A stretch of 44,881 nt of DNA. Origin: a phage. Below, in pieces: positions 6,190 to 44,881 of this stretch. The translations under genes and the position numbers were made by a program. The notes beneath the pieces are model-generated. The model did not search any database and was not told the origin of the DNA. It saw nothing but the letters and a program-made list of their open reading frames with translations. Where the stretch lies: sequence record PV730301.1; one strand, given 5' to 3'. Each line of letters starts with the position of its first letter. Positions within the stretch are counted from its first letter, which is position 1.

Positions 6190-6296
6190 GTAGTGTGCTA
6201 GAATAAGTTTGCGCCTAGTGTCGCACACGAAAAGCGGGTGGTTCCCGTCTGGCGCATTAACCTTAACCTGTAACCTCTTAACCAAAGGATTAAAGA

Positions 6297-19440: not shown

Positions 19441-19956
19441 CTAGCCCCCGTGATTCTCATGAAAGCCGTAGCGAACAATCGCAGATTTCCGTGCACAAGC
19501 CGCGTCAAATATATTGTCATAGTGGCCCAGGAATATAAGTCTACCGTCAACGAATATCCCTGCTTTCCATTTAGCCGCCCGTGCGTTCCAGTGCACACCA
19601 GTGAGACCTGACTTGTTATCTTTTCTGCGAGATGCGTTTCGGTTATTATCAGTACGGGATACTTTCCGAAGGTTGCATGCACGATTATCATCCAGGATAT
19701 GATTTATATGGTCTACTTCATCATCAGGCCCTAAACGGTCATTGTTATACATCTCCCATGCGATACGATTAGCCCTGTAACTAACCCCTCTGACGACGAT
19801 ACATATGTAGCCCCTCTTACTTGGACTACCGGCTTCGTCTCCGGCGTTTATACTGTGTCTCGGGGAATACTTCCATCGTATCTTCCCCGTGTCAGGTTCG
19901 TAGTAGAAATGGTCATGCCAATTAATTAAATCTCTCATAAACCACCCCATCATCAT
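19441..19956 (-). CDS. HNH homing endonuclease
   Basis: HINHILDDNRACNLR HNH motif; overlaps the DNA polymerase stop. Confidence 0.7.
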   Translation of the reverse strand: MMMGWFMRDLINWHDHFYYEPDTGKIRWKYSPRHSINAGDEAGSPSKRGYICIVVRGVSYRANRIAWEMYNNDRLGPDDEVDHINHILDDNRACNLRKVSRTDNNRNASRRKDNKSGLTGVHWNARAAKWKAGIFVDGRLIFLGHYDNIFDAACARKSAIVRYGFHENHGG

Positions 19957-23259: not shown

Positions 23260-24527
23260 TCTAAATCCTCCTCTGTTACCTGATTCCACTCAGGGCGTTT
23301 GTCATCTGCCGTTGCAACACATGGTGCGCCTGGCTTACGTGTAATTAGTTTTTCGAGAATAGGCCACGCATCGGTATTTTTGAACGCGGCTTCTGCCTCT
23401 TTCGGAGATACAAGAGACGCCTTAAACAGCATTTTCCGGTCTATTTCATAAAATTCTGCGGCGTCTATTACCTCCTTCGCATCTTTCCACGCACGGTTGC
23501 CCATCTTACCCTCCACCAGCTTGTACCCCGGCACTTTCTTACCGGAATGCAACGCGGTGGCCATCGCTTTCTCAACCTTGTCGATGTGCTGGCGCAACAA
23601 CGGCAACTTCTCATACTCAGCTACGAGTTGCTCTGGCGTAAGCTCCAGCGCAAAGTCGTCTTCCAGTTCTTCCACCAGTACAGAATTAACCGTCTTTGTA
23701 CGCGCGGCGCATTGTTCCGAGAACCGACACCACTGACAACCATCGACCGACGGCCTGAAATCCGATGCTTTCAGGTTCTTCTTGCCGCGGGAATACGCAT
23801 CAAGGGCTAACAGCGCGCGTTTCTGGGCAAACTTAGCGAACAGTTCCAGACCTTCAACCGAGATGTCCCACTCCGACGCACCACCAGCGTACGGCTGGAA
23901 GATGACCAGGCGCACTACTGTGATGTTATAACGTCTCTTGAGTCGGCGATAAACACCGAGAGCGTAAAGCATAAGCTGTTTGTTTTCTTTCGCTTCGACA
24001 CGATGCCGCCCAGTTTTCAGGTCGCCGATGATAAGCATATGTTCATCGGTGTTAGCCAGTTCCTGTACGGCAACAAGGTCAGCGGTCCCGAACGTCTCAA
24101 CGCCTTCATACCCAGGATGCAATACCTCAGTAAGATTGACGCGCATTTCCGGCTTGGCGTAAGTCGCTACGTCGATAATCGCTTTGCAGTAGTCCGTGTA
24201 CTTGCGCACCTGCTCAATCATGTCTGCCGTAATCAGTACCGCACCTTTCATCGGACTGATTAGTTCCTTAATCTGGCCTTTACCTTCATCAAGCACGTAA
24301 GCGCCGACTTCGCGCTCTAACGGCAACGCAGTACCTTTGATGTACTGATTTAAATGGACCTCTGCTATAGTGTGGCACGCGGTTCCTGTAACGGCGGATT
24401 TGCCTGACGTGTTAGGAATATCTTTTTCACAGGCCAACGATGCACTGCACGTCAGCCACTTTTTAGCGCCCGACGGTGACAGTAAGGCGTGTACATCGTT
24501 ATTGCCGCCACGTTCTTTAAGAATCAT
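23256..24527 (-). CDS. DUF2800-like PD-(D/E)XK nuclease (Cas4-like exonuclease)
   Basis: IGDLKTG...EAKENKQLMLYA core and C-terminal Cys cluster CQWCRFSEQC. Confidence 0.65.
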   Translation of the reverse strand: MILKERGGNNDVHALLSPSGAKKWLTCSASLACEKDIPNTSGKSAVTGTACHTIAEVHLNQYIKGTALPLEREVGAYVLDEGKGQIKELISPMKGAVLITADMIEQVRKYTDYCKAIIDVATYAKPEMRVNLTEVLHPGYEGVETFGTADLVAVQELANTDEHMLIIGDLKTGRHRVEAKENKQLMLYALGVYRRLKRRYNITVVRLVIFQPYAGGASEWDISVEGLELFAKFAQKRALLALDAYSRGKKNLKASDFRPSVDGCQWCRFSEQCAARTKTVNSVLVEELEDDFALELTPEQLVAEYEKLPLLRQHIDKVEKAMATALHSGKKVPGYKLVEGKMGNRAWKDAKEVIDAAEFYEIDRKMLFKASLVSPKEAEAAFKNTDAWPILEKLITRKPGAPCVATADDKRPEWNQVTEEDLE

Positions 24528-25021
24528 TTCTCGGCTCCGTTAACTGTAAATCCGTATTTAATTTCGGCTTGCCTACGAGCCTTAGCCGCGTTCTCTAACT
24601 TATTGTAAGCCCCTAAATAAATTGGCACCCCGTCTACATAAATTCTGGCAACCCACTTACCAGAGCGTTTATGAAACCCAACGCCTTTAACACCCGAAGT
24701 ATTGTCAGTACGTATGTTTGTGCCGTGTGCGATACTACCTCGACGCATTTTTATAAGATTTTCTATTCTGTTATCAGTTCTATCTTTATTTTTGTGACGA
24801 ATTACTTCCCCTTGCGCCATTGGCCCGTTAAACATCTCCCAAACAACGTGGTGGATAAGTTTAGTAGCGCCGTTAAAACGTAGTATTTTAAATTCACTCC
24901 CATCGTTATCCACCCTCGTACTACCAGCTTCTTGCCCTATTTTTACAGATTTTGACGGGCTTATTTTCCAAAACAATTTCCCTGTGACAGGGTCATAGTC
25001 AAACAGTTCATGCCAATTCAT
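24524..25021 (-). CDS. HNH endonuclease
   Basis: HKNKDRTDNRIENL HNH-like motif; ATGA overlap with the upstream gene. Confidence 0.65.
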   Translation of the reverse strand: MNWHELFDYDPVTGKLFWKISPSKSVKIGQEAGSTRVDNDGSEFKILRFNGATKLIHHVVWEMFNGPMAQGEVIRHKNKDRTDNRIENLIKMRRGSIAHGTNIRTDNTSGVKGVGFHKRSGKWVARIYVDGVPIYLGAYNKLENAAKARRQAEIKYGFTVNGAEK

Positions 25022-25290
25022 GCTCTGCTCTCCCACTGGTCAATTAAATGTCGCGTTTGGTGATGACAATGCATAGCCCACCCATACATCGACTCAAAGA
25101 CATAAAAGTCAGGTTTGGCGAAAGTCGTGCGCTTAATCTGTGACACGTGTCGGCCTATATCTTTAGGGCGCGGTACTTCGCCTAAGTACGCCATCTCTTC
25201 CATCAGGTGCGCACCGGACGGCGCACGTAACAGCCATAGCGCCTCCGTATTATCCCGCCTGTCTACGGCGCGGTAGAGTTGGTAAATCAT
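25018..25290 (-). CDS. hypothetical protein
   Basis: ORF with GAGGG upstream of the ATG. Confidence 0.4.
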   Translation of the reverse strand: MIYQLYRAVDRRDNTEALWLLRAPSGAHLMEEMAYLGEVPRPKDIGRHVSQIKRTTFAKPDFYVFESMYGWAMHCHHQTRHLIDQWESRA

Positions 25291-26147: not shown

Positions 26148-26363
26148 ATGCAACCATCTGAACTAGGCATCCGCGTAGAACAACGCCGCAAAGAACTCGG
26201 CATCTCCCAGCGCCGTCTGGCTGTCCTGGCTGGTGTTTCCCAGGGCGCAATTAACCAGCTGGCACTTGGAGTAACTCAGGACGTCCGCCCGGCGACGCTG
26301 TTTAAACTGGCGGAAGTGCTGCAAGTAGACGCTAAGTGGCTGGCATTCGGTGAAGGGGCTTAA
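26148..26363 (+). CDS. XRE-family HTH transcriptional regulator (Cro/CI-like)
   Basis: ELGISQRRLAVLAGVSQGAINQLALG helix-turn-helix; AAGGAG RBS; only plus-strand gene within the minus-strand block. Confidence 0.75.
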   Translation: MQPSELGIRVEQRRKELGISQRRLAVLAGVSQGAINQLALGVTQDVRPATLFKLAEVLQVDAKWLAFGEGA

Positions 26364-28680: not shown

Positions 28681-28914
28681 TTATTCCAGGTCTTCTAAAG
28701 TGGCCGTCATTCCGCGAACTTCAGCAACGGCACTATATTTCCCGCCAACATTTTTCACGACACCGGATTTAACCAGTACACGTAACGACCCTTCAATGAT
28801 GGCGGAACTATAGTACTTAAAATAACTACGGCGCAAGTCGATAACGCTGCACGACCCTTTTTTACGTGTTAACGAAACGACCGCCGTAAATACGCGTGAC
28901 TGGAACTCGGTCAT
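28681..28914 (-). CDS. hypothetical protein with C-terminal TLEDLE tail
   Basis: ATGA coupling to the upstream AlpA-like gene. Confidence 0.5.
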   Translation of the reverse strand: MTEFQSRVFTAVVSLTRKKGSCSVIDLRRSYFKYYSSAIIEGSLRVLVKSGVVKNVGGKYSAVAEVRGMTATLEDLE

Positions 28915-29081
28915 TTCACGTTCTCCTTAATCCACGCTTCCACTTTCTCCGGGTCGAACGTACCTGGCTGGCGGCGGCCCATAATGCGAATACAACAATC
29001 GGGGAACTTCCCACTCTTTAACCAGTTATTCAGTGTGCGGCGAGTAACCCCGATACGCTCAGCTACTTCATTCTGTGTCAT
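28911..29081 (-). CDS. AlpA/excisionase-family HTH regulator
   Basis: MTQNEVAERIGVTRRTLNNWLKSGKFP matches the AlpA-type HTH; start placed at ATG 29081. Confidence 0.6.
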   Translation of the reverse strand: MTQNEVAERIGVTRRTLNNWLKSGKFPDCCIRIMGRRQPGTFDPEKVEAWIKENVK

Positions 29082-29113
29082 TCTCAAACCCCCATTATCA
29101 GTTAACGAAACCA

Positions 29114-29142
29114 AGTATACATTGTGAATAATGGGAAATCAA
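29114..29142 (-). promoter_or_regulatory. sigma70-like promoter (TTGATT-17-TATACT) for the AlpA-primase operon
   Basis: Hexamers read from the sequence; spacer carries an ATTATTCACA variant of the conserved element. Confidence 0.45.
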
Positions 29143-29511
29143 ACATAATCGCACCTATTGACATTATGAAAATCTTCGTTTAAGGTGCTTCTGTATCTTA
29201 GTTACTTTGATTCCTGTTCACCTTGTAAGAATGTTTAACCCGTGCGTCAAGCAAAGGGTTAAACACAGGCTTACTGAACATTCGAATTATCGTAACTTTC
29301 CTTCCTTAGTATCTCAGGTTGCCCTGGGCAAGCTCTATTCTCATCGGCAGCTTATCTCTTAAGTATCTGATTTTCTTAATGTGCCGTAGATTCGCAACCG
29401 TAAAAATGTAACGATTATTGGGCAGGCTTAAGGCCTGCCCTTTAGTTACCAAGTAATAAGAATAAAGGCACAACCATCCCTGAAAAATCACAACGGCAAC
29501 GTAACCATCTC

Positions 29512-29540
29512 TTGCACACCCCGACATAATAGGATACTAT
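29512..29540 (+). promoter_or_regulatory. sigma70-like promoter (TTGCAC-17-TACTAT) with the conserved element
   Basis: Hexamers read from the sequence; same architecture at 30871..30899. Confidence 0.5.
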
Positions 29541-29568
29541 TCACTTATCAAAACGAAACCGAGGAGCG

Positions 29569-36029: not shown

Positions 36030-36310
36030 TGGCGCGCACCGTTGCATCTAGATTCACCGATATTGAATCCGCTATAGAAGAAGCCGTTTATTGTAGATTT
36101 TGCAACCCCTCCGCGGTACATAACTACGGAGTTATTGTTAAATATGGCAAGTTTGAGGTTAGAAGGGTGCGCGCCGACCGTCCGTACGAGTTTTTATGGA
36201 CAACAGAAAGCCTCATCCCGCGGTGCCACATTTACACAAGCGGTGCACATACGATTTTTGTAGACCTTAACAAGAAAGATATTACCGTCACTAAAGGAGC
36301 GACAAATTGA
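36029..36310 (+). CDS. hypothetical protein
   Basis: ORF. Confidence 0.5.
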   Translation: MARTVASRFTDIESAIEEAVYCRFCNPSAVHNYGVIVKYGKFEVRRVRADRPYEFLWTTESLIPRCHIYTSGAHTIFVDLNKKDITVTKGATN

Positions 36311-36543
36311 TTACCAGCATCCCTAAACTGATTGAAGAGTACGGAAATATGTCGGAGACTTGCCGACAAACCGGTATCTGCGAGATGACGATTGCCAAGT
36401 ACAGCAAAGACGTGAACTGCGAGCGTCACGTAATTTATAACAATCGTCTTATGACGCACGTTAAGACTAGCCCGGTGTTATTCACACGCCGCGGTATCAC
36501 TAAAACAGAGCAACGCATTGCTAAAAAGGAGAGTGGGGAATGA
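36307..36543 (+). CDS. hypothetical protein
   Basis: ORF; start codon uncertain (TTG or internal ATG). Confidence 0.4.
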   Translation: MITSIPKLIEEYGNMSETCRQTGICEMTIAKYSKDVNCERHVIYNNRLMTHVKTSPVLFTRRGITKTEQRIAKKESGE

Positions 36544-36667: not shown

Positions 36668-36762
36668 TGTACATCCCGCCCAATCCCCTTATATAATCTA
36701 TTTAGACGCGTAGGGCGCGTCTGGTGCGCTCTGATGGTCAGACGCATATGCAAGGGGATTCT

Positions 36763-37305
36763 ATGAAGCTGAAACTTAAGCAGCCATCGCCAGAGGTGGT
36801 GCAAGCTGCACATGAAGAAGCTGTTAGCGCAAACCGTCGCCGTAAACGACCGCGCGGTAAACAGAGCCTTTATCAATCATCCCGTAATTCCGCCGCGCTG
36901 TGGGACCCGGACTATTGCGACGAATTAATCGAGTTCTTCGACCGCACGTCGTGGGAGCTTGTGCCTACGTCAAAGGGAGACGAACGCCCGCTGATTCAGG
37001 ATAAACCCCCGTCTCTGGCCCGCTTCGCCTTACACATCGGCGTCACTATCCCGATTATTAAGCTGTGGCTGCGTGAGATTCCTGCATTTGCAGAAGCCTG
37101 GGAGACAGCTCAATCGCTGGAAGAGGCCTATTTCACTGAGACAGGGGCCGCTGGTATCTCCGCTACGTTCGCTGCCGCTAAGCTGGGCCTTAGCAAAGAT
37201 AAGCCGGTCGAGGAAGCCGAGGTTCTACCGGCGACAATCGTATTTAGCGTAGCGCCCCCTGTAGGTGAAATCAAAACCACTAACATGGGTGAGGACGACG
37301 TATGA
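36763..37305 (+). CDS. terminase small subunit
   Basis: Directly upstream of and overlapping the large terminase; HTH-like region ARFALHIGVT...W..E.P.F.EAWE. Confidence 0.6.
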   Translation: MKLKLKQPSPEVVQAAHEEAVSANRRRKRPRGKQSLYQSSRNSAALWDPDYCDELIEFFDRTSWELVPTSKGDERPLIQDKPPSLARFALHIGVTIPIIKLWLREIPAFAEAWETAQSLEEAYFTETGAAGISATFAAAKLGLSKDKPVEEAEVLPATIVFSVAPPVGEIKTTNMGEDDV

Positions 37306-38552
37306 GTATCCAACTGTCCGCCCCTCAATCTATATTTCTCAATTGCGCCAATAAGTATAAGGCGTACGTCGGGGGCTTCGGTAGCGGTAAAACGTTTGTA
37401 GGATGCCTGAAGCTATTGACTTTCATCCGTCAGAACCCAAGAACGCGCGTCGGATACTTCGGACCGACATACCCGGCAATTCGCGATATTTTCTATCCAA
37501 CTTTCGAGGAAGCGGCTAATCTACTCGGGCTAAGTGTAGTAGTTAAAACGGGAGACAAAGAAGTAGAGGTGCGATATGGGCGCCAGTACCTGGGTACGGT
37601 AATCTGTCGTTCTATGGACAACCCGGCATCGATAGTTGGCTTTAAAGTATCCGCCGCGGTAGTGGACGAGCTGGACGTATTGAGCCGCGAGAAAGCGGAG
37701 CTGGCGTGGAACAAAATCGTAGCTCGTATGCGTCTTGTTATACCCGGTGTAGTTAACCAGATTTCGGTGACAACTACACCAGAGGGGTTTAAGTTTGTTT
37801 ATTCTAAATTTAAAGAGAATCCTACCAAAAGTTACTCTATGGTTCAGGCGTCTACACATGAGAATGCAAAATTTCTCCCATCGGATTATATCGACTCATT
37901 AGTGGAAACGTACCCGGAGCGATTAATAGACGCATATCTGAACGGTGAGTTTGTCAACCTGACATCCGGCAGCGTGTATTACGCATACGACCGCCGTAAG
38001 CACCGCAGCAAAGAGACAATTCAGCCGGGCGACACCTTATACATTGGGCAGGACTTCAACGTTACGAAGAATGCGAGCGCCGTTTATGTACAGCGCAAAG
38101 ACGGCTGGCACGCGGTTGCAGAACTGAAAGGTCTGTTTGATACGCCGGACACCGTGCGTGTAATTACCGAGAAGTGGAAGTCGCAAGGCCACCGTATCGT
38201 CGTTTACCCCGACGCCAGCGGCAAGAACCGCAAAACCAACTCCGCGTCAATCTCTGATATTGCATTACTACAGCAGGCTGGTTTCGACGTTCGCGCTAAA
38301 TCCGCCAACCCCCCGGTTAAAGACCGCGTTTTAGCCGTGAACACCGCGCTGGAAAAAGGTAAGCTGTGGGTTAATGACCACTTATGCCATGAGATAGCGA
38401 AGGCGCTGGAGCAGCAGGCATACGATGATAACGGAGAGCCAGCTAAAGACGGCGTCATTGACCACATGGCGGATGCTCTCGGCTATCCTGTAGTTTACGA
38501 GATGCCGGTGGTTAAACCTGTAATCAACATCCCGGTGACTTTCGCACTTTAA
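37302..38552 (+). CDS. terminase large subunit
   Basis: Walker A GGFGSGKT and Walker B AAVVDELD; size and position. Confidence 0.9.
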   Translation: MSIQLSAPQSIFLNCANKYKAYVGGFGSGKTFVGCLKLLTFIRQNPRTRVGYFGPTYPAIRDIFYPTFEEAANLLGLSVVVKTGDKEVEVRYGRQYLGTVICRSMDNPASIVGFKVSAAVVDELDVLSREKAELAWNKIVARMRLVIPGVVNQISVTTTPEGFKFVYSKFKENPTKSYSMVQASTHENAKFLPSDYIDSLVETYPERLIDAYLNGEFVNLTSGSVYYAYDRRKHRSKETIQPGDTLYIGQDFNVTKNASAVYVQRKDGWHAVAELKGLFDTPDTVRVITEKWKSQGHRIVVYPDASGKNRKTNSASISDIALLQQAGFDVRAKSANPPVKDRVLAVNTALEKGKLWVNDHLCHEIAKALEQQAYDDNGEPAKDGVIDHMADALGYPVVYEMPVVKPVINIPVTFAL

Positions 38553-38564
38553 GAGGATTATTCA

Positions 38565-40046
38565 ATGTTAACTATGAACGGTCAGAATCAGGGTGTTAAG
38601 ACAAAACACCGGGAATGGCTGCATCACTTCGATAAATGGCAGAAGGTGCGCCACGCGCTGGAAGGCGACCTTATTCGCTATCTGCGCAACGTCGGGAAGA
38701 ACGAGCCTGACCCGACCTACGCAGCACAGCGCCAGGAAGAATACGAGAACGGTGCTATCTGCTACAACTTCACTAAACGTACCCTGGTAGGGATGGTGGG
38801 GTCGGTTATGCGCAAAGACCCCGAGCAGATTATCCCGCCTGAACTTGAGTACCTGTTACGTAATGCCGACGGTTCCGGCGTTGGCCTGTGGCAGCACGCT
38901 CAGGACACTCTAATGGAGATTGACTCGGTTGGCCGCGGCGGGTTGCTGGTTGACGCCCCGGAGACAGCCGCAGCAACGGCAGCCGAGCAGAACGCGGGGC
39001 TATTAAACCCGGTAATCGCATTCTATACCGCAGAGAACATCATCAACTGGCGACTGACTCGCGTCGGTTCTGTTAACCGCATGACGATGGTCGTGTTGCG
39101 TGAGGTGTGGGAATACTCAGAACCGGATGCAGAGTTCGAAACAAAGTTCGGTGAGCAATACCGTGTTCTCGATTTGATTGACGGGCGCTACCGTCAGCGT
39201 ATTTACCGCTTCGATGCAGAAGGTGGTGCACAGGGTGAAGTAAAACAAATCTTCCCGAAACTTGGCGAACAGCTACGCGGCAAAATCCCGTTTACGTTCA
39301 TTGGCGCGAGCAACAACGACGCAACCATCGACGACGCCCCTTTGCTCCCGTTGGCTGAACTTAATATCGGGCATTTCCGCAACAGCGCGGACAATGAAGA
39401 GTCCAGCTTCGTTGTAGGCCAGCCCACTCTGTTCATCGCCCCTGGTGAAAACATGAGCATGGAACAGTGGGTGGAAGCTAACCCACGCGGTGTGCGCATG
39501 GGGTCGCGTTCAGGCCATAACATCGGGTACGGCGGAAACGCGTTTCTGGTTCAGGCAGGAGAGAACAACCTGGCCAAGCAGAATATGCTGGATAAAGAGA
39601 ATCAGGCAATCCAGATTGGCGCGCAGCTTATCACCCCGACGCAGCAAATCACCGCTGAATCAGCACGCCTGCAACGCGGCGCGGATACGTCCGTTATGGC
39701 GACAATCGCACGTAACGTAAGCATGGCATATACCGATGCGTTGCGCTGGGTGGCTGCGATGCTAGGGTTGCGTGAAGGTACAGAGGTTGAGTTCAAGCTG
39801 AATATGGAGTTCTTCCTGCAACCAATGACCGCTCAGGACCGCACCCAGTGGATGGCGGATATTAACGCTGGCCTGTTACCGGCTACAGCTTACTATGCGG
39901 CATTGCGTAAGGCGGGCGTAACGGACTGGACGGACGAAGACATTCAGAACGCTATCGAGGATGCGCCTCTGCCTATGGGCGCGGTTACCCGGGTGCAGGG
40001 GGAGATTCCGCAGTCTGCGCAACAACAGGACACCACTCAGCAGTAA
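38565..40046 (+). CDS. portal protein
   Basis: 493 aa directly after the large terminase, before the head-morphogenesis gene. Confidence 0.7.
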   Translation: MLTMNGQNQGVKTKHREWLHHFDKWQKVRHALEGDLIRYLRNVGKNEPDPTYAAQRQEEYENGAICYNFTKRTLVGMVGSVMRKDPEQIIPPELEYLLRNADGSGVGLWQHAQDTLMEIDSVGRGGLLVDAPETAAATAAEQNAGLLNPVIAFYTAENIINWRLTRVGSVNRMTMVVLREVWEYSEPDAEFETKFGEQYRVLDLIDGRYRQRIYRFDAEGGAQGEVKQIFPKLGEQLRGKIPFTFIGASNNDATIDDAPLLPLAELNIGHFRNSADNEESSFVVGQPTLFIAPGENMSMEQWVEANPRGVRMGSRSGHNIGYGGNAFLVQAGENNLAKQNMLDKENQAIQIGAQLITPTQQITAESARLQRGADTSVMATIARNVSMAYTDALRWVAAMLGLREGTEVEFKLNMEFFLQPMTAQDRTQWMADINAGLLPATAYYAALRKAGVTDWTDEDIQNAIEDAPLPMGAVTRVQGEIPQSAQQQDTTQQ

Positions 40047-40056
40047 GTTCACATAT

Positions 40057-40079
40057 AGCCCCGAAAGGGGCTTTCTTAT
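40057..40079 (+). terminator. terminator-like hairpin (possible attenuator inside the head operon)
   Basis: AGCCCC-GAAA-GGGGCT hairpin followed by TTCTTAT. Confidence 0.45.
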
Positions 40080-40082
40080 AGT

Positions 40083-41159
40083 ATGCTATTAACTTTAGCG
40101 CCACAGGGTTTATTTATGAGCTTACTTACATCACTAATCAGCCACCAGATATGGCTGCAACGCACCGCATCCGGCGAAGTGAAAGACCTCGCGCCGTTCA
40201 TTCAGGAGATGCGGGACGAAATAAAACGGCAGGTGCTGCTATTCGGCGACGACGGGCGCAGCACTGCGCGACTGAATAAACTGTTACGTGACCTCGAAGA
40301 AGCGCTAACTGGACTTACAGGCGACTGGCAAACAAAGCTGACAGAAGACCTTAAGGAACTGGCGGCGTATGAGGCTGAGTGGAACGTAAAGACACTGACC
40401 GCCAACGTTAACGCGGAATTTGTTACACCTACGGCCGAGCAGGTGTGGGCCGCAGCCGAGTTTCAACCCTTATCGTTAAGCGACAAGCCCGTTGACTTCA
40501 CTAAGCTGATGTCTGGCTGGGGTGAAACGGAGGTTGCGCGCCTTGTAACGGGCGTTAAGATGGGTTTCGCACAAGGCCAGACAACACGGCAGATTGTTAA
40601 GAATGTTGTAGGCGCTGGTGGACTAGCCAACATCTCTGAGCGTAACGCAGCTACAGTAATCCGCACCGCGCTGTCCCACGTATCCAACGAAGCCCGTAAT
40701 GAGACGTACCGCCAGAACGACGACATCATTGAGAAGTACGAGTGGGTGTCGACGTTGGACAGCCGCACCAGTACAATTTGCAGAGCCAGAGACGGAATGA
40801 CGTGGGAAATCGGAAAAGGGCCGATGCCGCCAGCGCATCCGAATTGTCGGTCATGCACGGCCCCTGTGATTAGCTCGGAGTTCGACTTCCTGGATAAAGG
40901 CGCAAAACGCGCGGCTAAAGGCGCAGACGGCGGAGCCCAGGTAAGCGCGGGCACCACTTACTACGAGTTCCTGAAACAGCAACCGGCATGGTTTCAGGAC
41001 CAGGCGCTTGGTCCTGTTCGCGGTAAGATTTTCCGTAACAGCGGTATATCGCCGGAAGAGTTTCGCGTAATATCTGTAGATGGTTTCGGGAATCCGCTCA
41101 CGCTTAGGCAGATGGCGGAACTCGATAAACGTGTTGCTGATTATCTGAAAGGGGAATAA
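40083..41159 (+). CDS. head morphogenesis protein (Mu F / SPP1 gp7-like)
   Basis: Position after the portal; size. Confidence 0.55.
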   Translation: MLLTLAPQGLFMSLLTSLISHQIWLQRTASGEVKDLAPFIQEMRDEIKRQVLLFGDDGRSTARLNKLLRDLEEALTGLTGDWQTKLTEDLKELAAYEAEWNVKTLTANVNAEFVTPTAEQVWAAAEFQPLSLSDKPVDFTKLMSGWGETEVARLVTGVKMGFAQGQTTRQIVKNVVGAGGLANISERNAATVIRTALSHVSNEARNETYRQNDDIIEKYEWVSTLDSRTSTICRARDGMTWEIGKGPMPPAHPNCRSCTAPVISSEFDFLDKGAKRAAKGADGGAQVSAGTTYYEFLKQQPAWFQDQALGPVRGKIFRNSGISPEEFRVISVDGFGNPLTLRQMAELDKRVADYLKGE

Positions 41160-41620
41160 TGATGGGCTTTTTCAAAGTAACTGATGTGCCGTCGCGTCGC
41201 GTAGTTCAGTATGCTCGCGTGTCTGGCTCTGGTGAGAACGTGGTGTTTATCGAAGATGAAAGTGTACTCGGTACACCAGTAGACGACATGCCGTTTGCGG
41301 ACAAGACCGGTATTGCGTTGCCTGCGGCGGGTATGCTTTACGAGATTCCGTATCTGGCGGACGCCGGTGACGTGTACTTCTCTTTGCAACCGCAGGACGC
41401 TGAACTGGCAGACGGCAGCGCAACTATCACTGTCGAAGTTAAGGCAGGCAAAGCACCCTATGCGCTGACCTGGTACAAAGACGGTAAGGAAGTGGTAAAC
41501 GCCCCGGAAGAGGCTCTGTCTCTGACGGTTAACGCCGCGGGCGAATACTTCGTTAAAGTTACCGATGCCGATGGTGTAGAGGCCGTGAGTAAGGCGGCGA
41601 AGGTCACTAAGCCAGAATGA
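41159..41620 (+). CDS. Ig-like domain protein
   Basis: C-terminal PYALTWYKDGKEV...GEYFVKVTDADG parallels the Ig-like region of the 44741 gene. Confidence 0.55.
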   Translation: MMGFFKVTDVPSRRVVQYARVSGSGENVVFIEDESVLGTPVDDMPFADKTGIALPAAGMLYEIPYLADAGDVYFSLQPQDAELADGSATITVEVKAGKAPYALTWYKDGKEVVNAPEEALSLTVNAAGEYFVKVTDADGVEAVSKAAKVTKPE

Positions 41621-41623
41621 TAA

Positions 41624-41651
41624 AAGGCCCCTTACGGGGCCTTAGATTTTT
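41624..41651. terminator. rho-independent terminator between convergent genes
   Basis: AAGGCCCC-TTAC-GGGGCCTT hairpin followed by ATTTTT. Confidence 0.65.
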
Positions 41652-41956
41652 CCTATTAGTTTTTTAATTCTATCGCGTTCTATTCTTTTCCCTTCTTCTA
41701 CTCCATCATTGAAGTATCTTTCCGCGTCTTCCTTGTTGGACTTACGAACTGCTGCACCATCTCTATATAGCTCTTGATTGTCACGTAACACCCTAATCTT
41801 AGCTATTATTTCGTTAAAAGGTGCGTCAGCACGTACTTTAAGCATAGACCTTACCTGTTCTACGAACCAAGCAAAATCAGGCTTTTTCGCTAATTTCTCT
41901 CTTAAAACAGCGTTCTCTTGTTCCGCTTTTGTGGCGCGAGCACGATAATCAACCAT
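41642..41956 (-). CDS. hypothetical charged coiled-coil protein (lone minus-strand gene in the late region)
   Basis: ORF with its own promoter and terminator. Confidence 0.5.
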   Translation of the reverse strand: MVDYRARATKAEQENAVLREKLAKKPDFAWFVEQVRSMLKVRADAPFNEIIAKIRVLRDNQELYRDGAAVRKSNKEDAERYFNDGVEEGKRIERDRIKKLIGKI

Positions 41957-41999
41957 TTTAGTAAACCTCTATTTTTATTAAATAACACCGATGTGATGA

Positions 42000-42028
42000 A
42001 TAGTACCCTATTATATTGGTGTCTGCAA
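42000..42028 (-). promoter_or_regulatory. sigma70-like promoter (TTGCAG-17-TACTAT) with the conserved 23-mer
   Basis: Same 23-mer as at 6158..6180. Confidence 0.45.
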
Positions 42029-42094
42029 ACTATTTGTTTATGTATTCCAGTTATTCCACTCAATTGTAAATGTTGGAATAAACTATTCGAATAG

Positions 42095-42123
42095 TTGACT
42101 TTTCACTAAAAATGTGCTAAGCT
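42095..42123 (+). promoter_or_regulatory. candidate late promoter (TTGACT-17-TAAGCT with extended -10 TG) overlapped by a perfect 16-bp palindrome
   Basis: Hexamers read from the sequence; palindrome AACTATTCGAATAGTT at 42081..42096. Confidence 0.45.
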
Positions 42124-42303
42124 CCACCTGAGCTTGTGAAGTATGAACAAGCGACCGCGGCGCGGGCAGGTAACGGAGCGGGACGTAAGTCCTGAGTGTA
42201 GTTACGCTGACGCGTTCGGAAGGGCCACACTCTATTGCTTGTGTAAAAAGTAACTGGTTTACTGAGATTACGCCGTTTCTATGTTTAAATGATAAGGACT
42301 AGC

Positions 42304-42330
42304 GCCCCGCTTTATGGCGGGGCTTTACTT
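42304..42330 (+). terminator. leader terminator/attenuator directly upstream of the spanin gene
   Basis: GCCCCGC-TTTATG-GCGGGGC hairpin followed by TTTACTT, 18 nt before the RBS. Confidence 0.5.
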
Positions 42331-42347
42331 ATCGAGAAAGGAGAAAC

Positions 42348-42734
42348 ATGAATCTTAAAGCAACTGTCGTAGCGGGAGCATGTTTCATCATCCTGGCTTA
42401 CGCACACGGCATCTACCAGTATCGCAGCGGCTGGAACGAAGGCCGGGCGAATCTCGTTTCGCAGCAACAGCAGAAAGCACAGGCTGAGTTCGCGAAGAAA
42501 ACACAACGGCAGCAGCAGGATGAATCAAAGGCAGCCGCCGCTGACAACGAAGGTAAGACGAAATCAGAGGTGATTACCCGTGAAGTCGTTAAGTACATTA
42601 GAACGCCTGGTCGCAGCGTGTGCACTTTTGACCCTGAGCGCGTGCAGCTCAAGTCCCGCGCCGTCGCAAACGCCAATTCCATCCCCGGATACGACGATGA
42701 TGCAGCCGCCGTGCAAACTGGCGCCGCCAAGTAG
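42348..42734 (+). CDS. i-spanin (Rz-like)
   Basis: N-terminal TM helix, Gln/Ala-rich coiled coil, AAGGAG RBS, embedded +1 frame lipoprotein ORF. Confidence 0.7.
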   Translation: MNLKATVVAGACFIILAYAHGIYQYRSGWNEGRANLVSQQQQKAQAEFAKKTQRQQQDESKAAAADNEGKTKSEVITREVVKYIRTPGRSVCTFDPERVQLKSRAVANANSIPGYDDDAAAVQTGAAK

Positions 42735-42843
42735 CGACGCGGACGAGGATTTGGCTATCGACGTTCAGAATGCTGAATGTGTGCGGCAACTGCGCCTGAA
42801 GGTGTTCATGTTGCAGGATTACGTGAGGAATATTCTGGAATAG
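42580..42843 (+). CDS. o-spanin (Rz1-like lipoprotein)
   Basis: Signal peptide with lipobox LSAC; Pro-rich; overlaps the 3' end of the Rz gene in another frame. Confidence 0.7.
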   Translation: MKSLSTLERLVAACALLTLSACSSSPAPSQTPIPSPDTTMMQPPCKLAPPSSDADEDLAIDVQNAECVRQLRLKVFMLQDYVRNILE

Positions 42844-42925
42844 TTGCCTTGCATGTTGGAATAATTTATTCTTGACATGTAAATCCGGGTGGCCCGGGTT
42901 CCAACGTCCAGGGGACATACTGACT

Positions 42926-43630
42926 ATGAATCGTTTTTTACGTTATCCGTTCCAGGAAGAAGCTGGAGCAGAAGATAAAGCCGGTGGCGGTGACGCGCCG
43001 AAAATGTTCACCGCCGAAGAAGTTCAGGCGCTGATTGAGAAAGAAGTCGCCGGGCTTAAGGCTAATCAGGAAGCATTGCTGGCGGAGAAGAAAGAAGCCG
43101 CCCGCAAAGCAAAAGAGGCTGAAGAAGAACGGCAGCGCGCACACCAGGAGGCGTTAAAAGCCGCCGGTAAGATGGACGAGTTCGAAAAGACGATTCGTAG
43201 CCAGTATGACCCGGTGTTAGCCGAGAAAGATGGCCGCATCTCCAGAATGGCAGAGCGCATCCTCGGCAGCGAACGTAAAGCGGTGTTAGGCTCTTTCGCG
43301 GGTGACTTTATTACCCCGGAAGCAGTAGACATTCTTGCTCCGTTCGTTAAGACTGAGTTCGAAGGTGATGATGTGGTTACTAAGTTTGTTGGTGCAGATG
43401 GCAACGTAATCACGACTGACCCGGAACAGTTCCGCAAATACCTGCGCGAACACAAAGCGTTTTCGCATTTGATTAAAGCAAATGCAGCTTCCGGCGGCGG
43501 GGCTTCCGGTAGCAAAGGCGGCGGGGCCGCACCAGCGTTTAAAGACATGAGTGAAGCGGAGCGCATTGCTCTGTATGAATCGAACCCTGCCGAATTTGAA
43601 CGGCAACTTAAAGCCCTGAGGAAAAAATAA
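42926..43630 (+). CDS. capsid scaffolding protein
   Basis: Helical charged EAKR-rich protein immediately upstream of the major capsid gene; start at ATG 42926 (track begins at a TTG at 42872). Confidence 0.6.
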   Translation: MNRFLRYPFQEEAGAEDKAGGGDAPKMFTAEEVQALIEKEVAGLKANQEALLAEKKEAARKAKEAEEERQRAHQEALKAAGKMDEFEKTIRSQYDPVLAEKDGRISRMAERILGSERKAVLGSFAGDFITPEAVDILAPFVKTEFEGDDVVTKFVGADGNVITTDPEQFRKYLREHKAFSHLIKANAASGGGASGSKGGGAAPAFKDMSEAERIALYESNPAEFERQLKALRKK

Positions 43631-44679
43631 TGGCAATTACTACTATCGGCGACATCGTAACTGGTAAAGAATCGGTCATTCTGTCTTACATGACAGAAGA
43701 CCCGGTGGAGAAAACTGCGTTCTTCCAGTCTGGTATTCTTACCCCGACCCCGTACGCCGCTGCTATCGCTAACGGCCCGTCCAACAAAGCTGTTCTGCCG
43801 TACTGGAAAGCGATTGATACTTCTATCGAGCCGAACTACTCGAACGATGTGTATCAGGACATCGCAACCCCTCGTAACGTGCAGACCGGTGAGATGGACG
43901 TTCGCGTAGCTTACCTGAACGAAGGTTTCGGTCAGGCGGATTTGACTGTCGAACTGACCAGCCAGCATCCGCTGCGATCCGTAGCGTCCCGTCTGGATAA
44001 CTTCTGGCAGCGCCAGGCACAACGCCGTCTGATTGCTACCGCGCTTGGTCTGTACAATGACAACGTAGCCACTACCGACGCGTACCACGAGCAGAACGAC
44101 ATGGTAATCGACGTGTCCTCTACCCTGGGCTTCGACTCCGGCGCGTTCATCGATGCTACCCAGACTATGGGTGATGCGCTGATTGGTAACGGCGGTGAAG
44201 TGCTGGGCGCTATTGCAATGCACAGCTTCGTTTATGCGCAGGCGCGTAAGCAACAGCTTATCGACTACATCCGTAACGCAGACAACGACACCATGTTCGC
44301 CGCCTACCAGGGCTACCGCGTGATTGTTGATGACAGCATGACCGTAGTCGGTACTGGCGGCAGCCGTAAGTTCATCTCCATTATCTTCGGTAACGGCGCT
44401 ATCGGTTACGGTGAAGGTTCTCCGTCCAACCCGCTGGAATACGAGCGCGAAGCGTCTCGCGGTAACGGTGGTGGTGTTGAAACCCTGTGGACCCGTAAGA
44501 CCTGGTTGCTGCACCCGTTCGGCTACAGCTTCACCAGTGCAGTAATCACCGGCAACGGCACCGAGACTACCCCACGCTCCGCTTCCTGGCAGGACCTGGC
44601 TAACGCCTCCAACTGGAACCGTGTTGTTGAACGTAAGCACGTACCGATTGCCTTCCTGGTAACTGGTGTCGGGTCTTAA
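43630..44679 (+). CDS. major capsid protein
   Basis: 349 aa after the scaffold, followed by a strong terminator; ATGA-type coupling. Confidence 0.8.
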   Translation: MAITTIGDIVTGKESVILSYMTEDPVEKTAFFQSGILTPTPYAAAIANGPSNKAVLPYWKAIDTSIEPNYSNDVYQDIATPRNVQTGEMDVRVAYLNEGFGQADLTVELTSQHPLRSVASRLDNFWQRQAQRRLIATALGLYNDNVATTDAYHEQNDMVIDVSSTLGFDSGAFIDATQTMGDALIGNGGEVLGAIAMHSFVYAQARKQQLIDYIRNADNDTMFAAYQGYRVIVDDSMTVVGTGGSRKFISIIFGNGAIGYGEGSPSNPLEYEREASRGNGGGVETLWTRKTWLLHPFGYSFTSAVITGNGTETTPRSASWQDLANASNWNRVVERKHVPIAFLVTGVGS

Positions 44680-44740: not shown

Positions 44741-44881
44741 ATGGCAGACGTATTGAAACGACGCATCACCGGCGTCTCCGCTGACGCCCCTGGTGCCAAG
44801 ATTGACATGGCGACTATTTCTCCTGCGTCTTTTTCTACCCCACTTAACGCTACTACCGAGGTTACCGCACCCGCCGCATTG
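44741..44881 (+). CDS. Ig-like domain virion protein, 5' portion (continues at window start 2..331)
   Basis: ATG with GAGGA RBS; reading frame continues through the terminal repeat. Confidence 0.55.
   Translation, partial: MADVLKRRITGVSADAPGAKIDMATISPASFSTPLNATTEVTAPAAL

What the first reader, a model, noticed from the sequence alone, without database searches (positions are those of the whole stretch)
42853..42900. ATGTTGGAATAA 12-mer repeated upstream of the late promoter and of the scaffold gene
Seen in sequence: ATGTTGGAATAA occurs at 42070..42081 and 42853..42864. At the second site it forms a perfect 13-bp palindrome GAATAATTTATTC (42859..42871), immediately followed by TTGACA and a short GC hairpin before the scaffold/capsid genes. 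Inference: a binding site for a late-gene regulator shared by the two late transcription units.
Basis: partly seen in the sequence, partly recalled or inferred. Interest (0 to 1): 0.4.

Follow-up and report, generated by a model that had tools for sequence, protein, structure and literature searches.

The report
Shared operator at two phage promoters
The repeated 12-mer is the left part of a conserved 15-bp inverted repeat (GGAATA-N3-TATTC) at two promoters of a Kagunavirus-like phage. It is most likely the binding site of a regulator, and the best candidate is the phage's own NinH/Fis-like protein. This is an ordinary kind of element but an undescribed case.

Summary
The sequence facts are correct: the 12-mer occurs at 42070 and 42853, with the palindrome, TTGACA and GC hairpin as described. 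An exact 12-mer pair is not above chance (about 68 pairs expected genome-wide, 2.6 within 1 kb).

The real unit is a 15-bp inverted repeat, GGAATA-N3-TATTC(C), at 42075-42089 and 42858-42872. These are the only two copies with at most one mismatch (0.08 expected). Each has two extra GGAATA/TATTCC hexamers 30-32 bp upstream. The repeat is invariant at both places in Kaguna-, Jersey-, GRNsp27- and phiEap-2-type phages. The 5' ATGTT of the 12-mer is not conserved.

- **Site 1** ends 6 nt before the -35 of an extended -10 promoter, P1. P1 drives a roughly 200-nt structured leader and the spanin genes.
- **Site 2** lies inside a promoter, P2 (TTGCCT-17-TATTCT), found in 23 of 23 distinct relatives. 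The TTGACA is not a -35.

Of 308 window ORFs, only the NinH-like gene (36307-36543) co-occurs perfectly with the repeat across eight complete genomes.

Best reading, inferred only: a dimeric regulator, probably NinH-like, activates weak P1 and occludes P2.

The parts
42070..42081 (+). 12-mer copy 1 (ATGTTGGAATAA). Only GGAATAA belongs to the conserved element.
   Evidence: Exact match. Jersey-type phages have ATTCAGGAATAC here.
42853..42864 (+). 12-mer copy 2 (ATGTTGGAATAA), lying in the spacer of promoter P2.
   Evidence: Exact match. Relatives read TAAGTGGAATAA, GCATGGAATAA or ATGTGGAATAA.
42075..42089 (.). Operator O1: inverted repeat GGAATAAACTATTCG. It ends 6 nt before the -35 of P1, with its centre at about -48/-49.
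   Evidence: One of only two matches with at most one mismatch in the genome. Kept in 34 distinct P1 variants of sequence types A and B, and as perfect GGAATAAATTATTCC in GRNsp27 and phiEap-2, always 6 nt from the -35.
42858..42872 (.). Operator O2: inverted repeat GGAATAATTTATTCT, covering -21 to -7 of P2. Its right arm doubles as the -10 hexamer.
   Evidence: Match with one mismatch. The core GGAATAATTTATTCT is invariant in all distinct palindrome-bearing P2 sequences and TTG follows it in every one, while the 6 nt upstream vary freely.
42043..42057 (-). Auxiliary half-sites upstream of P1: TATTCC-AGT-TATTCC, a direct repeat with 9-bp period. Its centre is about 32 bp from the O1 centre.
   Evidence: Conserved as TTATTCCAGTTATTCC in type A and B relatives. 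Found inverted, 8 nt from a palindrome, in L014 and phiEap-2.
42827..42842 (+). Auxiliary half-sites upstream of P2: GGAATA-TTCT-GGAATA. They lie in the last codons of the o-spanin gene, and the stop codon TAG (42841-42843) begins inside the second copy.
   Evidence: GGAATAG next to the -35 is kept in Cornell-type phages that have no spanin gene upstream. Part of the conservation may be due to coding.
42095..42123 (+). Promoter P1, extended -10 type: TTGACT (42095-42100), 17-nt spacer, TG (42115-42116), TAAGCT (42118-42123). Predicted start about 42130.
   Evidence: Read from sequence. The layout T[TAG]GA[CT]T-17-TGnTA[ACT][GC]CT is conserved in types A, B and C although the spacer sequences differ. 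The start site is not mapped.
42130..42347 (+). Conserved structured leader or non-coding RNA between P1 and the i-spanin start. Its 3' hairpin at 42304-42323 is terminator-like.
   Evidence: 95-99% identical in about 180 phages. No Rfam family. Fold z-score -2.0. 9 pairs with compensatory changes. Terminator-like site found by the scan. No ORF is conserved between the sequence types.
42348..42843 (+). Overlapping i-spanin (42348-42734) and o-spanin (42580-42843) genes, the coding cargo of P1.
   Evidence: ORFs. Annotated as Rz-like spanins in relatives.
42844..42872 (+). Promoter P2: TTGCCT (42844-42849), 17-nt spacer, TATTCT (42867-42872). Predicted start about 42879-42881.
   Evidence: All 23 distinct relatives have TTG[CT][CAT]N, exactly 17 nt, then TAT[TA][CT]T, ending 12-14 nt before the conserved hairpin. 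This includes Serratia, Klebsiella and Pantoea relatives whose spacers are unrelated.
42872..42877 (+). It is not one; it lies between the -10 and the start of P2.
   Evidence: No -10-like hexamer at 16-18 nt (CGGGTT). Reads TTGTTA in Jersey-type phages and is absent in the Serratia and Klebsiella relatives.
42882..42900 (+). Stem-loop at the 5' end of the scaffold mRNA: 8 bp, loop UGG. Not a terminator.
   Evidence: Fold. The outer pairs covary across relatives: U-A 8, G-C 9, A-U 3, U-G 2 for the first pair. No run of T follows it.
42910..43630 (+). RBS AGGGGA (42910-42915) and the scaffold gene (ATG at 42926, stop at 43630), the first gene of the P2 unit. The major capsid gene follows at 43630-44679.
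   Evidence: Annotated as head scaffolding protein in relatives.
36307..36543 (+). NinH-like (Fis-like HTH) gene, the best candidate for the protein that binds O1 and O2.
   Evidence: Pfam Phage_NinH, 29.9 bits against a cutoff of 29.8, and 9 of 9 homologs match. hhalign to lambda NinH gives 95.6% probability. It is the only one of 308 ORFs present in all 5 palindrome-bearing complete genomes and absent from all 3 without the palindrome. Among IMG/VR contigs of at least 35 kb: 39 have both, 8 have neither, 1 has the palindrome only, 0 have NinH only.
41624..41643 (.). Bidirectional terminator that ends the upstream terS-to-decoration unit. P1 and P2 therefore restart transcription.
   Evidence: Terminator-like on both strands.

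Best explanation
The 12-mer is not a unit. It is the left arm, plus five unconserved flanking bases, of a 15-bp inverted repeat, GGAATA-N3-TATTC(C).

This repeat, with two extra GGAATA/TATTCC hexamers about three helical turns upstream, forms an operator cluster at two sigma-70-type promoters of a Kagunavirus-like siphophage.

**O1 at P1.** O1 ends 6 nt before the weak -35 of P1. P1 is an extended -10 promoter that drives a roughly 200-nt structured leader and the spanin genes.

**O2 at P2.** O2 covers the spacer and -10 of P2, the promoter of the scaffold-capsid unit.

**Proposed mechanism.**
- A dimeric DNA-binding protein recognises the repeat.
- Bound at O2, it must compete with RNA polymerase, so it represses or dampens P2.
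- Bound at O1 (centre about -48/-49), it most likely helps polymerase at a promoter whose core elements are poor.
- Together this would act as a promoter switch or timer.

The most likely protein is the phage's own 78-aa NinH-like, Fis-like HTH protein (36307-36543), encoded just upstream of the terS unit.

**Shown here:** the sequence anatomy, its conservation, its genome-wide uniqueness, promoter geometry across relatives, and co-occurrence with the NinH-like gene.

**Inferred:** that a protein binds at all (about 0.8), that it is NinH-like (about 0.45), and the activate-P1, repress-P2 direction (about 0.35-0.4).
For: **Uniqueness.** Two matches with at most one mismatch against 0.08 expected. 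Two clusters of three hexamers fall only at these sites (P about 4e-4).

**Conservation.**
- The palindrome sits at the same two places in Bas76, Jersey, GRNsp27 and phiEap-2. PhiSTP1 has it at P2 only.
- GGAATAATTTATTCT is invariant at P2, and TTG follows it throughout, while the neighbouring spacer bases vary.
- O1 is always 6 nt from the -35, in three otherwise different P1 sequence types.
- phiEap-2 and L014 carry two palindromes 33 bp apart flanking the P2 -35.

**Promoters.**
- P2's -35, 17-nt spacer and -10 are present in 23 of 23 distinct relatives at a fixed distance from a covarying 5' hairpin.
- P1's TG extension is conserved in all types.

**Direction of action.**
- P1 versions with the palindrome have poor -10 hexamers (TAAGCT, TACGCT, TAACCT, TACCCT) and variable -35.
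- P1 versions without it (PhiSTP1, L014, AH01) carry a consensus TATAAT.
- Pantoea phage AH01 has the same TATTCT -10 at P2 but neither a palindrome nor a NinH-like gene. P2 therefore does not seem to need the factor.

**Candidate binder.**
- The NinH-like ORF is the only one of 308 with perfect co-occurrence across 8 complete genomes.
- The pattern is not a simple clade split. AH01 has the window-type capsid protein. phiEap-2's annotated major head gene is 969 nt, like those of Smarc3 and VLCpiS11a (a gene-length comparison, not an alignment).
- Among IMG/VR contigs of at least 35 kb: 39 have both, 8 have neither, 1 has the palindrome only.
- All 9 homologs hit Pfam NinH.
- Lambda NinH is a homodimer preferring a 15-bp pseudo-palindromic G-N13-C site (PMC7166090). 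O1 and O2 have that geometry.
- The predicted recognition helix (N/S/C)E(M/L)T(I/L)(A/S)KY is conserved across clades.
- The Cro-like HTH is in all genomes. The HTH_17 gene is found only in the Kaguna- and Jersey-type genomes (Bas76, Jersey), the same genomes that carry a different motif, AATAG-N4-CTATT, in 4-8 copies.
Against: - No binding, footprint or start-site data exist. The one Kagunavirus RNA-seq paper has no 5'-end resolution (PMC12645636).
- P1 and P2 each match the sigma-70 consensus at only 8 of 12 positions, and the promoter scan did not call them.
- The two operators sit differently relative to their promoters (about -49 and about -14). A single simple mode of action is therefore excluded.
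- A centre near -49 is not a classical activator position.
- In L014 and phiEap-2 a complete cluster also occurs inverted and upstream of a terminator. This does not fit a strictly promoter-proximal role.
- The NinH link rests on correlation, and the negative lineages represent few independent events.
- The -4/-3 and +3/+4 steps of the site are A-T, not the pyrimidine-purine steps reported for NinH and Fis.
- One contig (L072) has palindromes but no NinH hit.
- Part of the P2 upstream hexamers may be conserved because they encode the o-spanin C-terminus.
Confidence: 0.6

Rival explanations
1. A host DNA-binding protein (Fis-, ArgR-, Lrp- or other nucleoid-type) binds the AT-rich inverted repeats, rather than a phage protein.
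For: The site is a 15-bp G-N13-C element with an AT-rich core, the general shape of Fis sites as summarised in PMC7166090. It also resembles an ARG box with one extra central base (from memory). Phages with the palindrome infect Escherichia, Salmonella, Enterobacter and Raoultella. Phages without it infect Serratia, Klebsiella and Pantoea.
Against: - Hosts of positive phages (Raoultella, Enterobacter aerogenes) are closer to Klebsiella, a negative host, than to E. coli. A host split is therefore not tidy.
- A at -4 and T at +4, with no purine at -3, are unfavourable for Fis (rules recalled from memory, not tested).
- ARG boxes have a 4-nt centre, not 5.
- A phage gene (NinH-like) tracks the motif perfectly in 8 complete genomes.
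Confidence: 0.13
2. No dedicated regulator exists. The similarity reflects shared promoter architecture: a -10-like TATTCT, AT-rich UP-like DNA, and stop codons of upstream genes. In Kaguna-type phages the extra 5-nt match is chance or local gene conversion.
For: - The exact 12-mer is not significant.
- TATTCT is the -10 of P2 even where the left arm is missing (AH01, L017, L043).
- Three upstream genes end in GAA TAA or GAA TAG inside the motif.
Against: - Promoter spacers are normally free to vary. Here GGAATAATT is invariant while the adjacent 6 nt change completely.
- At P1 the right arm (TATTCG, TATTCA, TATTCC) lacks the final T of a -10 hexamer, yet it is conserved at a fixed 6 nt from the -35.
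- The dyad symmetry and the accompanying hexamer pairs recur in different contexts and orientations.
- 2 matches against 0.08 expected.
Confidence: 0.12
3. The element is the loading site of a Q-like antiterminator, as in lambda PR'. There the Q-binding element lies between -35 and -10, a roughly 200-nt leader ends in a terminator, and lysis genes come first.
For: - The layout P1, roughly 195-nt leader, terminator-like hairpin (42304-42323), then spanins resembles PR', 6S RNA, tR', then lysis genes.
- O2 lies between -35 and -10, like the lambda Q-binding element (from memory).
- Several intrinsic terminators lie inside the morphogenesis units.
Against: - None of the 30 small ORFs scanned with Pfam and PHROGs is Q-like.
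- At P1, the promoter that has the leader and terminator, the dyad is upstream of the -35, not in the spacer.
- At P2 no terminator follows.
- The 3' hairpin has a usable T-tract only in type A leaders.
- No conserved -10-like pause element lies in the early transcribed region.
Confidence: 0.05
4. The repeats are recombination linkers or mosaic-boundary sequences, or packaging or replication sites, rather than transcription signals.
For: - Homology with many relatives begins exactly at 42043, the left edge of the cluster.
- Cornell-type homology at P2 begins at GGAATAG.
- The cluster is found inverted in L014 and phiEap-2.
- The P1-leader block is 96% identical between Kaguna and some Salmonella phages whose neighbouring genes are only about 80-85% identical.
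Against: - Mosaic joints are expected at promoter regions anyway.
- The dyad keeps a fixed register with the -35 of P1 and with the -35 and -10 of P2.
- Two sites 783 bp apart flanking the spanin genes make no sense for packaging or replication.
- The replication genes lie about 15-20 kb away.
Confidence: 0.05

Closest known systems
Lambda NinH and E. coli Fis binding sites (15-bp G-N13-C pseudo-palindromes bound by a dimeric HTH protein; PMC7166090)
   Same: - A 15-bp dyad with G and C 13 bp apart and an AT-rich centre.
- A NinH-family gene is encoded by the phage and tracks the motif.
- Residues matching lambda N18, T32, K35, H45 and H55 are kept.
   Different: - The site here is a near-invariant specific sequence at two promoters, not a degenerate nucleoid-type consensus.
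- The -4/-3 steps are A-T rather than pyrimidine-purine.
- The arginine equivalent to NinH R30 (Fis R85) is Glu.
- No physiological target of any NinH protein is reported in the one NinH paper read here (PMC7166090).
One phage regulator that activates one promoter and represses another through differently placed sites (phi29 p4; lambda CI at OR2/OR3, PRM/PR). From general knowledge.
   Same: The same dyad sits upstream of one promoter (P1, about -49) and over the core of another (P2, -21 to -7). phiEap-2 has both positions on one promoter.
   Different: The proteins are unrelated. The site positions and the partner (auxiliary direct-repeat hexamers) differ. The direction of regulation here is inferred only from promoter quality.
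Dyad sites of phage late activators (Mu C/Mor at -43.5; P2 Ogr / P4 delta TGT-N12-ACA at -55). From general knowledge.
   Same: A dyad immediately upstream of a weak -35 (P1), with the regulator gene probably expressed before the structural genes.
   Different: In Mu and P2 every late promoter carries the site. Here only two of at least four morphogenesis promoter-like sites do, and one copy overlaps the -10. No C, Mor or Ogr homolog was found in the 30 ORFs scanned.
'Phage promoter' motif tgAATAGTa-ccTATTat-T reported for Kagunavirus fBC-Eco01 (PMC9825357)
   Same: Also a repeated dyad in Kagunavirus intergenic regions, and it shares the AATA/TATT core.
   Different: It is a different element: AATAG-N4-CTATT, 8 copies at early-type promoters, and common (4 or more copies) only in the Kaguna- and Jersey-type genomes tested. 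The GGAATA-N3-TATTC dyad is not mentioned in that paper and gave no full-text hit.

Membership tests
Sigma-70 -35/-10 promoter (P2) | A -35-like hexamer, a 17 +/- 1 nt spacer, and a -10-like hexamer with A at position 2 and T at position 6 | tested here: met
   TTGCCT-17-TATTCT. The same layout, with a spacer of exactly 17 nt, occurs in 23 of 23 distinct relatives, 12-14 nt before a conserved hairpin. It matches 8 of 12 consensus positions, below the threshold of the scan tool.
Sigma-70 -35/-10 promoter (P2) | Transcription start mapped a few nt downstream of the -10 | not testable with these tools
   No 5'-end data. The published RNA-seq lacks start-site resolution.
Extended -10 promoter (P1) | TGn immediately upstream of a -10 hexamer with A at position 2 and T at position 6 | tested here: met
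   TGcTAAGCT at 42115-42123. TGnTA[ACT][GC]CT is conserved in leader types A, B and C, with a 17-nt spacer to T[TAG]GA[CT]T.
Palindromic operator of a dimeric regulator | Dyad symmetry, conserved more strongly than flanking non-coding DNA, at or next to a promoter | tested here: met
Palindromic operator of a dimeric regulator | Demonstrated protein binding | not testable with these tools
   Needs a gel-shift or footprint experiment.
NinH/Fis-type site | G and C separated by 13 bp in a 15-bp pseudo-palindrome | tested here: met
   GGAATAATTTATTC(C/T). The criterion is from PMC7166090.
NinH/Fis-type site | Pyrimidine-purine steps at -4/-3 and +3/+4 | tested here: not met
   The site has A-T at -4/-3 and A-T at +3/+4 (sequence). 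The criterion is from PMC7166090.
NinH/Fis-type site | A cognate NinH-family protein with the DNA-contacting residues | tested here: inconclusive
   The Pfam NinH hit is at threshold (29.9 against 29.8), though 9 of 9 homologs match. hhalign gives 95.6% probability. N18, T32 and K35 are kept; R30 is Glu and R56 is not kept. The AlphaFold2 single-sequence model was unusable (pLDDT 56).
Lambda-type Q antitermination module | A Q-family antiterminator gene | tested here: not met
   No Q family among the 30 ORFs scanned with Pfam and PHROGs. Not every ORF was scanned.
Lambda-type Q antitermination module | A promoter-proximal terminator about 200 nt downstream, conserved | tested here: inconclusive
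   Terminator-like in type A. The hairpin is kept in types B and C, but the T-tract is poor or absent.
Mu C / P2 Ogr-type late-activator site | The same dyad upstream of every late promoter | tested here: not met
   Only two copies in the genome. The promoter-like sites read upstream of the tail genes and of terS lack it.
Intrinsic terminator (the GC hairpin at 42885-42897) | A GC-rich stem followed by a run of T | tested here: not met
   Followed by GTTCCAACG. Not listed by the terminator scan.

The most novel reading that the evidence does not exclude
The NinH-like protein of Guernseyvirinae is a sequence-specific switch rather than a generic Fis mimic. It would bind GGAATA-N3-TATTCC, turn on the weak extended -10 promoter P1 (leader and spanins) from about -49, and shut the factor-independent promoter P2 (scaffold and capsid) at its -10. 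That would give the first physiological target and role reported for the NinH family.
Probability: 0.3. Interest if true: 0.55.

Novelty: new member of a known kind. Interest (0 to 1): 0.4.

Why it matters
Guernseyvirinae (Kaguna-, Jersey- and Cornellviruses) are among the coliphages and Salmonella phages most often isolated for therapy and biocontrol. The papers found here report only predicted promoters for them (PMC9825357) and RNA-seq without 5'-end resolution (PMC12645636). I found no mapped promoter or operator.

This analysis gives:
- two comparatively supported promoters;
- a precise 15-bp operator;
- a single candidate regulator, so the idea can be tested with one gel shift and two reporter fusions.

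If the NinH link holds, it would assign a function to a protein family whose biological role is not established in the one paper on it read here. If it does not hold, the result is still an ordinary operator shared by two promoters.

Tried and rejected
- **The 12-mer as the unit.** Rejected: it is not significant alone and its 5' half is not conserved.
- **TTGACA (42872) as a -35.** Rejected: no -10 follows and it is not conserved.
- **The GC hairpin as a terminator.** Rejected: no T-tract. It is a covarying 5'-UTR stem.
- **Alternative sigma factors and a TGGAATAAT extended -10.** Sigma-54, sigma-E, sigma-28 and sigma-32 readings were checked by eye against remembered consensus sequences. The spacing does not fit, or the reading is not conserved at site 1.
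- **Known E. coli regulator sites.** CRP, LexA, Fur, ArgR, MetR, IclR, TyrR, CpxR, RcsAB, DnaA, IHF and Lrp, recalled from memory. None fits in both spacing and sequence.
- **An RNA-level role for the dyad.** Rejected: site 1 lies upstream of the P1 start and after a terminator, and the stem is AU-only.
- **Rfam for the leader and the whole window.** No match at gathering thresholds. Only chance-level hits at E up to 10.
- **Q-like, Mor/C or Ogr-like proteins.** None in the 30 ORFs scanned.
- **Other proteins from the first six-genome profile** (59-aa 368-547, 45-aa 15727-15864, 61-aa 35355-35540, capsid protein). Rejected: all are present in AH01, which lacks the palindrome.
- **Cro-like HTH as the binder.** Present in every genome.
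- **HTH_17 as the binder.** Found only in Bas76 and Jersey, so it is absent from other palindrome-bearing genomes.
- **PDB sequence search with the NinH-like protein.** Nothing useful.
- **AlphaFold2 from a single sequence.** pLDDT 56, unusable, so no fold search was run.
- **Leftward promoter at site 1.** Possible by eye (TACAAT), but Jersey-type phages have no leftward gene there.
Full report
**Context**

The window is a complete, circularly assembled siphophage genome: 44,754 bp plus a 127-nt overlap, where 1-127 equals 44755-44881. It is 93-97% identical to Kagunavirus phages of the subfamily Guernseyvirinae over the region of interest.

Gene order around the finding:
- terS, terL, portal, MuF-like and decoration genes (36724-41620, plus strand)
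- a bidirectional terminator (41624-41643)
- a minus-strand 104-aa cargo gene (41642-41956) with its own leftward promoter
- site 1
- a roughly 200-nt non-coding stretch
- overlapping spanin genes (42348-42843)
- site 2
- scaffold (ATG at 42926), major capsid, and the rest of the head and tail genes, which continue across the start of the window.

**Checking the observation**

The exact 12-mer repeat is not evidence by itself. Shuffled genomes contain about 68 exact direct 12-mer pairs, 2.6 of them within 1 kb. The real genome has 11 such pairs within 1 kb.

What stands out statistically is a shorter, symmetric core.
- GGAATANNNTATTCC with at most one mismatch occurs twice, at 42075 and 42858, against 0.08 expected. 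No shuffle reached two.
- The next best match has two mismatches and lies inside a gene.
- The hexamer GGAATA/TATTCC occurs 33 times. The only two clusters of three within 50 bp are 42043/42052/42075 and 42827/42837/42858 (P about 4e-4 under random placement).

**What is conserved in relatives**

I compared eight complete genomes, a further ten 3-kb loci and about 70 IMG/VR loci.

*Site 2.* The core GGAATAATTTATTCT is invariant in every distinct sequence that has the element, and TTG follows it in all of them. The six bases just upstream change freely: GCATGT, AGTAAG, CTGGCA, CTCCTG, CTGATG, ATAATC and others.

*Site 1.* Kaguna-type phages have ATGTTGGAATAAACTATTCG. Jersey-type phages have ATTCAGGAATACTTTATTCA. 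GRNsp27 and phiEap-2 have the perfect palindrome GGAATAAATTATTCC.

The conserved unit is therefore the 15-bp dyad. The ATGTT that makes the 12-mer exact in this phage is lineage-specific, arising by chance or by local conversion.

Upstream of site 1 the direct repeat TTATTCC-AG-TTATTCC is also conserved. In L014 and phiEap-2 a complete cluster, palindrome plus two GGAATAA, also occurs inverted and just before a terminator. In the same phages P2 carries two palindromes 33 bp apart.

**The promoters**

*Site 2 lies inside a promoter, not upstream of one.* In all 23 distinct relatives there is TTG[CT][CAT]N, exactly 17 nt, then TAT[TA][CT]T, ending 12-14 nt before a conserved stem-loop. Four relatives have unrelated spacers:
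- Serratia Smarc3: TTGCCC-17-TATATT
- Klebsiella VLCpiS11a: TTGTTA-17-TATATT
- Pantoea AH01 and L017: TTGCAT-17-TATTCT

In the window this promoter, P2, is TTGCCT (42844-42849), 17 nt, TATTCT (42867-42872).
- The dyad spans about -21 to -7.
- Its right arm is the -10 hexamer.
- TTGACA has no -10 downstream (CGGGTT), reads TTGTTA in Jersey-type phages and is absent in the distant relatives.

The GC hairpin is an 8-bp RNA stem near the predicted 5' end of the scaffold mRNA. Its outer pairs covary and no T-tract follows.

*Site 1 ends six bases before TTGACT (42095-42100).* A 17-nt spacer, TG, and TAAGCT (42118-42123) follow. The TG extension and the odd -10 (TAnSCT) are kept in three otherwise dissimilar versions of this region, while the -35 drifts among TTGACT, TAGACT, TAGATT and TGGATT. 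P1 is therefore an extended -10 promoter with weak core hexamers, and the dyad is centred near -48/-49.

Neither promoter reaches the threshold of the consensus scan. No start site has been mapped.

**Which way the regulator would act (inferred)**

A protein on -21 to -7 must compete with RNA polymerase, so at P2 occupancy means repression or damping.

P2 appears able to work without the factor. AH01 has the same -10, but neither the left arm of the dyad nor the candidate protein.

At P1 the comparison points the other way.
- P1 versions with the dyad have poor -10 hexamers.
- The three lineages in which the P1 region lacks the dyad (PhiSTP1, L014, AH01) carry a consensus TATAAT.

That pattern is what one expects if the dyad-bound protein helps polymerase at P1. 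I therefore favour a switch in which P1 goes up and P2 goes down. A pure repressor acting at both promoters is not excluded.

The element is not a general late signal. Promoter-like sites read by eye upstream of the tail genes (about 6177-6205, TTGGGG-16-TGcTAGAAT) and of terS (36668-36697) lack it.

**Who binds (inferred)**

The phage encodes three recognisable small DNA-binding proteins:
- a Cro-like HTH_3 (26148-26363)
- an HTH_17 (28911-29114)
- a NinH-like protein (36307-36543; Pfam NinH 29.9 bits against a 29.8 cutoff)

.

I compared all 308 ORFs of at least 40 aa with eight complete genomes.
- Five genomes carry the dyad: Bas76, Jersey, GRNsp27, PhiSTP1 and phiEap-2.
- Three do not: Smarc3, VLCpiS11a and AH01.
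- The only ORF present in all five and absent from all three is the NinH-like gene, together with its antisense shadow.
- A profile built from nine homologs finds nothing in the three negatives.

The split does not simply follow other genes. AH01 has the window-type capsid protein. phiEap-2's annotated major head gene has the same length (969 nt) as those of Smarc3 and VLCpiS11a; this is a length comparison, not an alignment.

Among IMG/VR contigs of at least 35 kb: 39 have both, 8 have neither, 1 has the dyad only, and none has NinH only. These are heavily related genomes, so the number of independent events is small.

Two further points fit. Lambda NinH is a Fis-like homodimer that prefers a 15-bp pseudo-palindromic G-N13-C site (PMC7166090), and the dyad has that geometry. 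The predicted recognition helix is conserved among the clades that share the dyad.

Three points count against the link.
- The inner steps of the site differ from the NinH and Fis preference.
- The structure prediction failed.

The other two DNA-binding proteins fit worse. The Cro-like protein is in all genomes. The HTH_17 gene is found only in the Kaguna- and Jersey-type genomes (Bas76, Jersey), the ones that carry a different repeated dyad, AATAG-N4-CTATT, in 4-8 copies. That second dyad was published as a 'phage promoter' motif (PMC9825357).

**Comparison with known systems, and novelty**

In kind this is an ordinary palindromic operator at sigma-70 promoters. Its use at two positions recalls phi29 p4 or lambda CI (from general knowledge).

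It fails the test for a Mu C or P2 Ogr-type universal late-promoter site. It also fails most tests for a lambda Q module: no Q-like gene was found, and the dyad is not in the spacer of the promoter that has the leader and hairpin.

I found no description of this motif. Three sequence strings searched in full text gave no hits. The two papers that mention NinH in this subfamily do not link it to any site.

**Verdict**

The likely mechanism is a shared operator for a regulator, probably NinH-like, that treats the two promoters differently.

Interest is moderate: an ordinary kind of element, but newly delimited, strongly conserved, and testable with simple experiments.

Noticed in passing
window 42130-42347: A conserved, structured, roughly 200-nt non-coding leader lies between P1 and the i-spanin gene.
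- It is 95-99% identical in about 180 Kaguna phages and some Salmonella phages.
- It comes in three sequence types (A, B, C), and no ORF is shared between them.
- It has no Rfam family.
- 9 predicted pairs show compensatory changes.
- Its 5' end can pair with the spanin RBS region.
- Its 3' hairpin (42304-42323) is terminator-like only in type A.

Its function is unknown. It could be a translational gate, a stabiliser or an antitermination element.
   Followed up: partly
window 6160, 18947, 23057, 26060, 29528, 30729, 30887, 41999: A second repeated dyad, AATAG-N4-CTATT, is embedded in early-type promoters (for example TTGCAC-17-TACTAT at 29511-29547). It has 8 copies here, 7 in Bas76, 4 in Jersey and 0-1 in the other genomes. 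The HTH_17 gene (28911-29114) is likewise found only in Bas76 and Jersey. The motif was published as 'phage promoters' in PMC9825357.
   Followed up: partly
window 41642-42029: A minus-strand 104-aa cargo gene sits in a variable slot between the decoration gene and P1. It has its own early-type promoter (-35 at 42028-42023, -10 at 42005-42000) and a bidirectional terminator (41624-41643). Homology with relatives starts at 41989-41999 or exactly at 42043. Other phages carry different genes here or none.
   Followed up: partly
window 41997-42347 compared with L003, L005 and others: The P1-leader block is about 96% identical between E. coli Kagunaviruses and some Salmonella phages whose flanking spanin and scaffold DNA is only about 80-85% identical. 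This suggests recent horizontal exchange of this regulatory block.
   Followed up: no
L014 862-900; phiEap-2 (L142) 11500-11537: A complete motif cluster, palindrome then 8 nt then GGAATAA-CT-GGAATAA, occurs in inverted orientation immediately before a terminator, at the end of the gene that follows the Hoc-like decoration gene. The hexamers are kept while the spacers have diverged. A strictly promoter-proximal operator model does not explain this.
   Followed up: partly
window 42838-42843; L014 about 860-868 and about 1829-1837: Stop codons of three different upstream genes (GAA TAG or GAA TAA) lie inside the GGAATA(A/G) motif.
   Followed up: no
window 6177-6205 and 36668-36697: Two further promoter-like sites for morphogenesis genes lack the GGAATA dyad. 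One is TTGGGG-16-TGcTAGAAT upstream of the tail-chaperone gene, back-to-back with an early-type promoter. The other is TGTACA-18-TATAAT upstream of terS, just after a terminator that follows the NinH-like gene.
   Followed up: no
window 1-127 and 44755-44881: An exact 127-nt terminal duplication. It is an assembly overlap of a circular or circularly permuted genome, not a biological repeat.
   Followed up: yes
window 19441-19956 and 24524-25036: Two paralogous HNH-AP2 homing-endonuclease genes lie inside the replication module. They are absent from the closest relative, Bas76, and patchily present in the others.
   Followed up: no
L072 (IMGVR_UViG_3300023280_000122): This is the single discordant contig. 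It has palindromes at P1 and P2, but the pattern-based search found no NinH-like gene. This could be a search miss, since only 5.6 kb of the contig is held.
   Followed up: no
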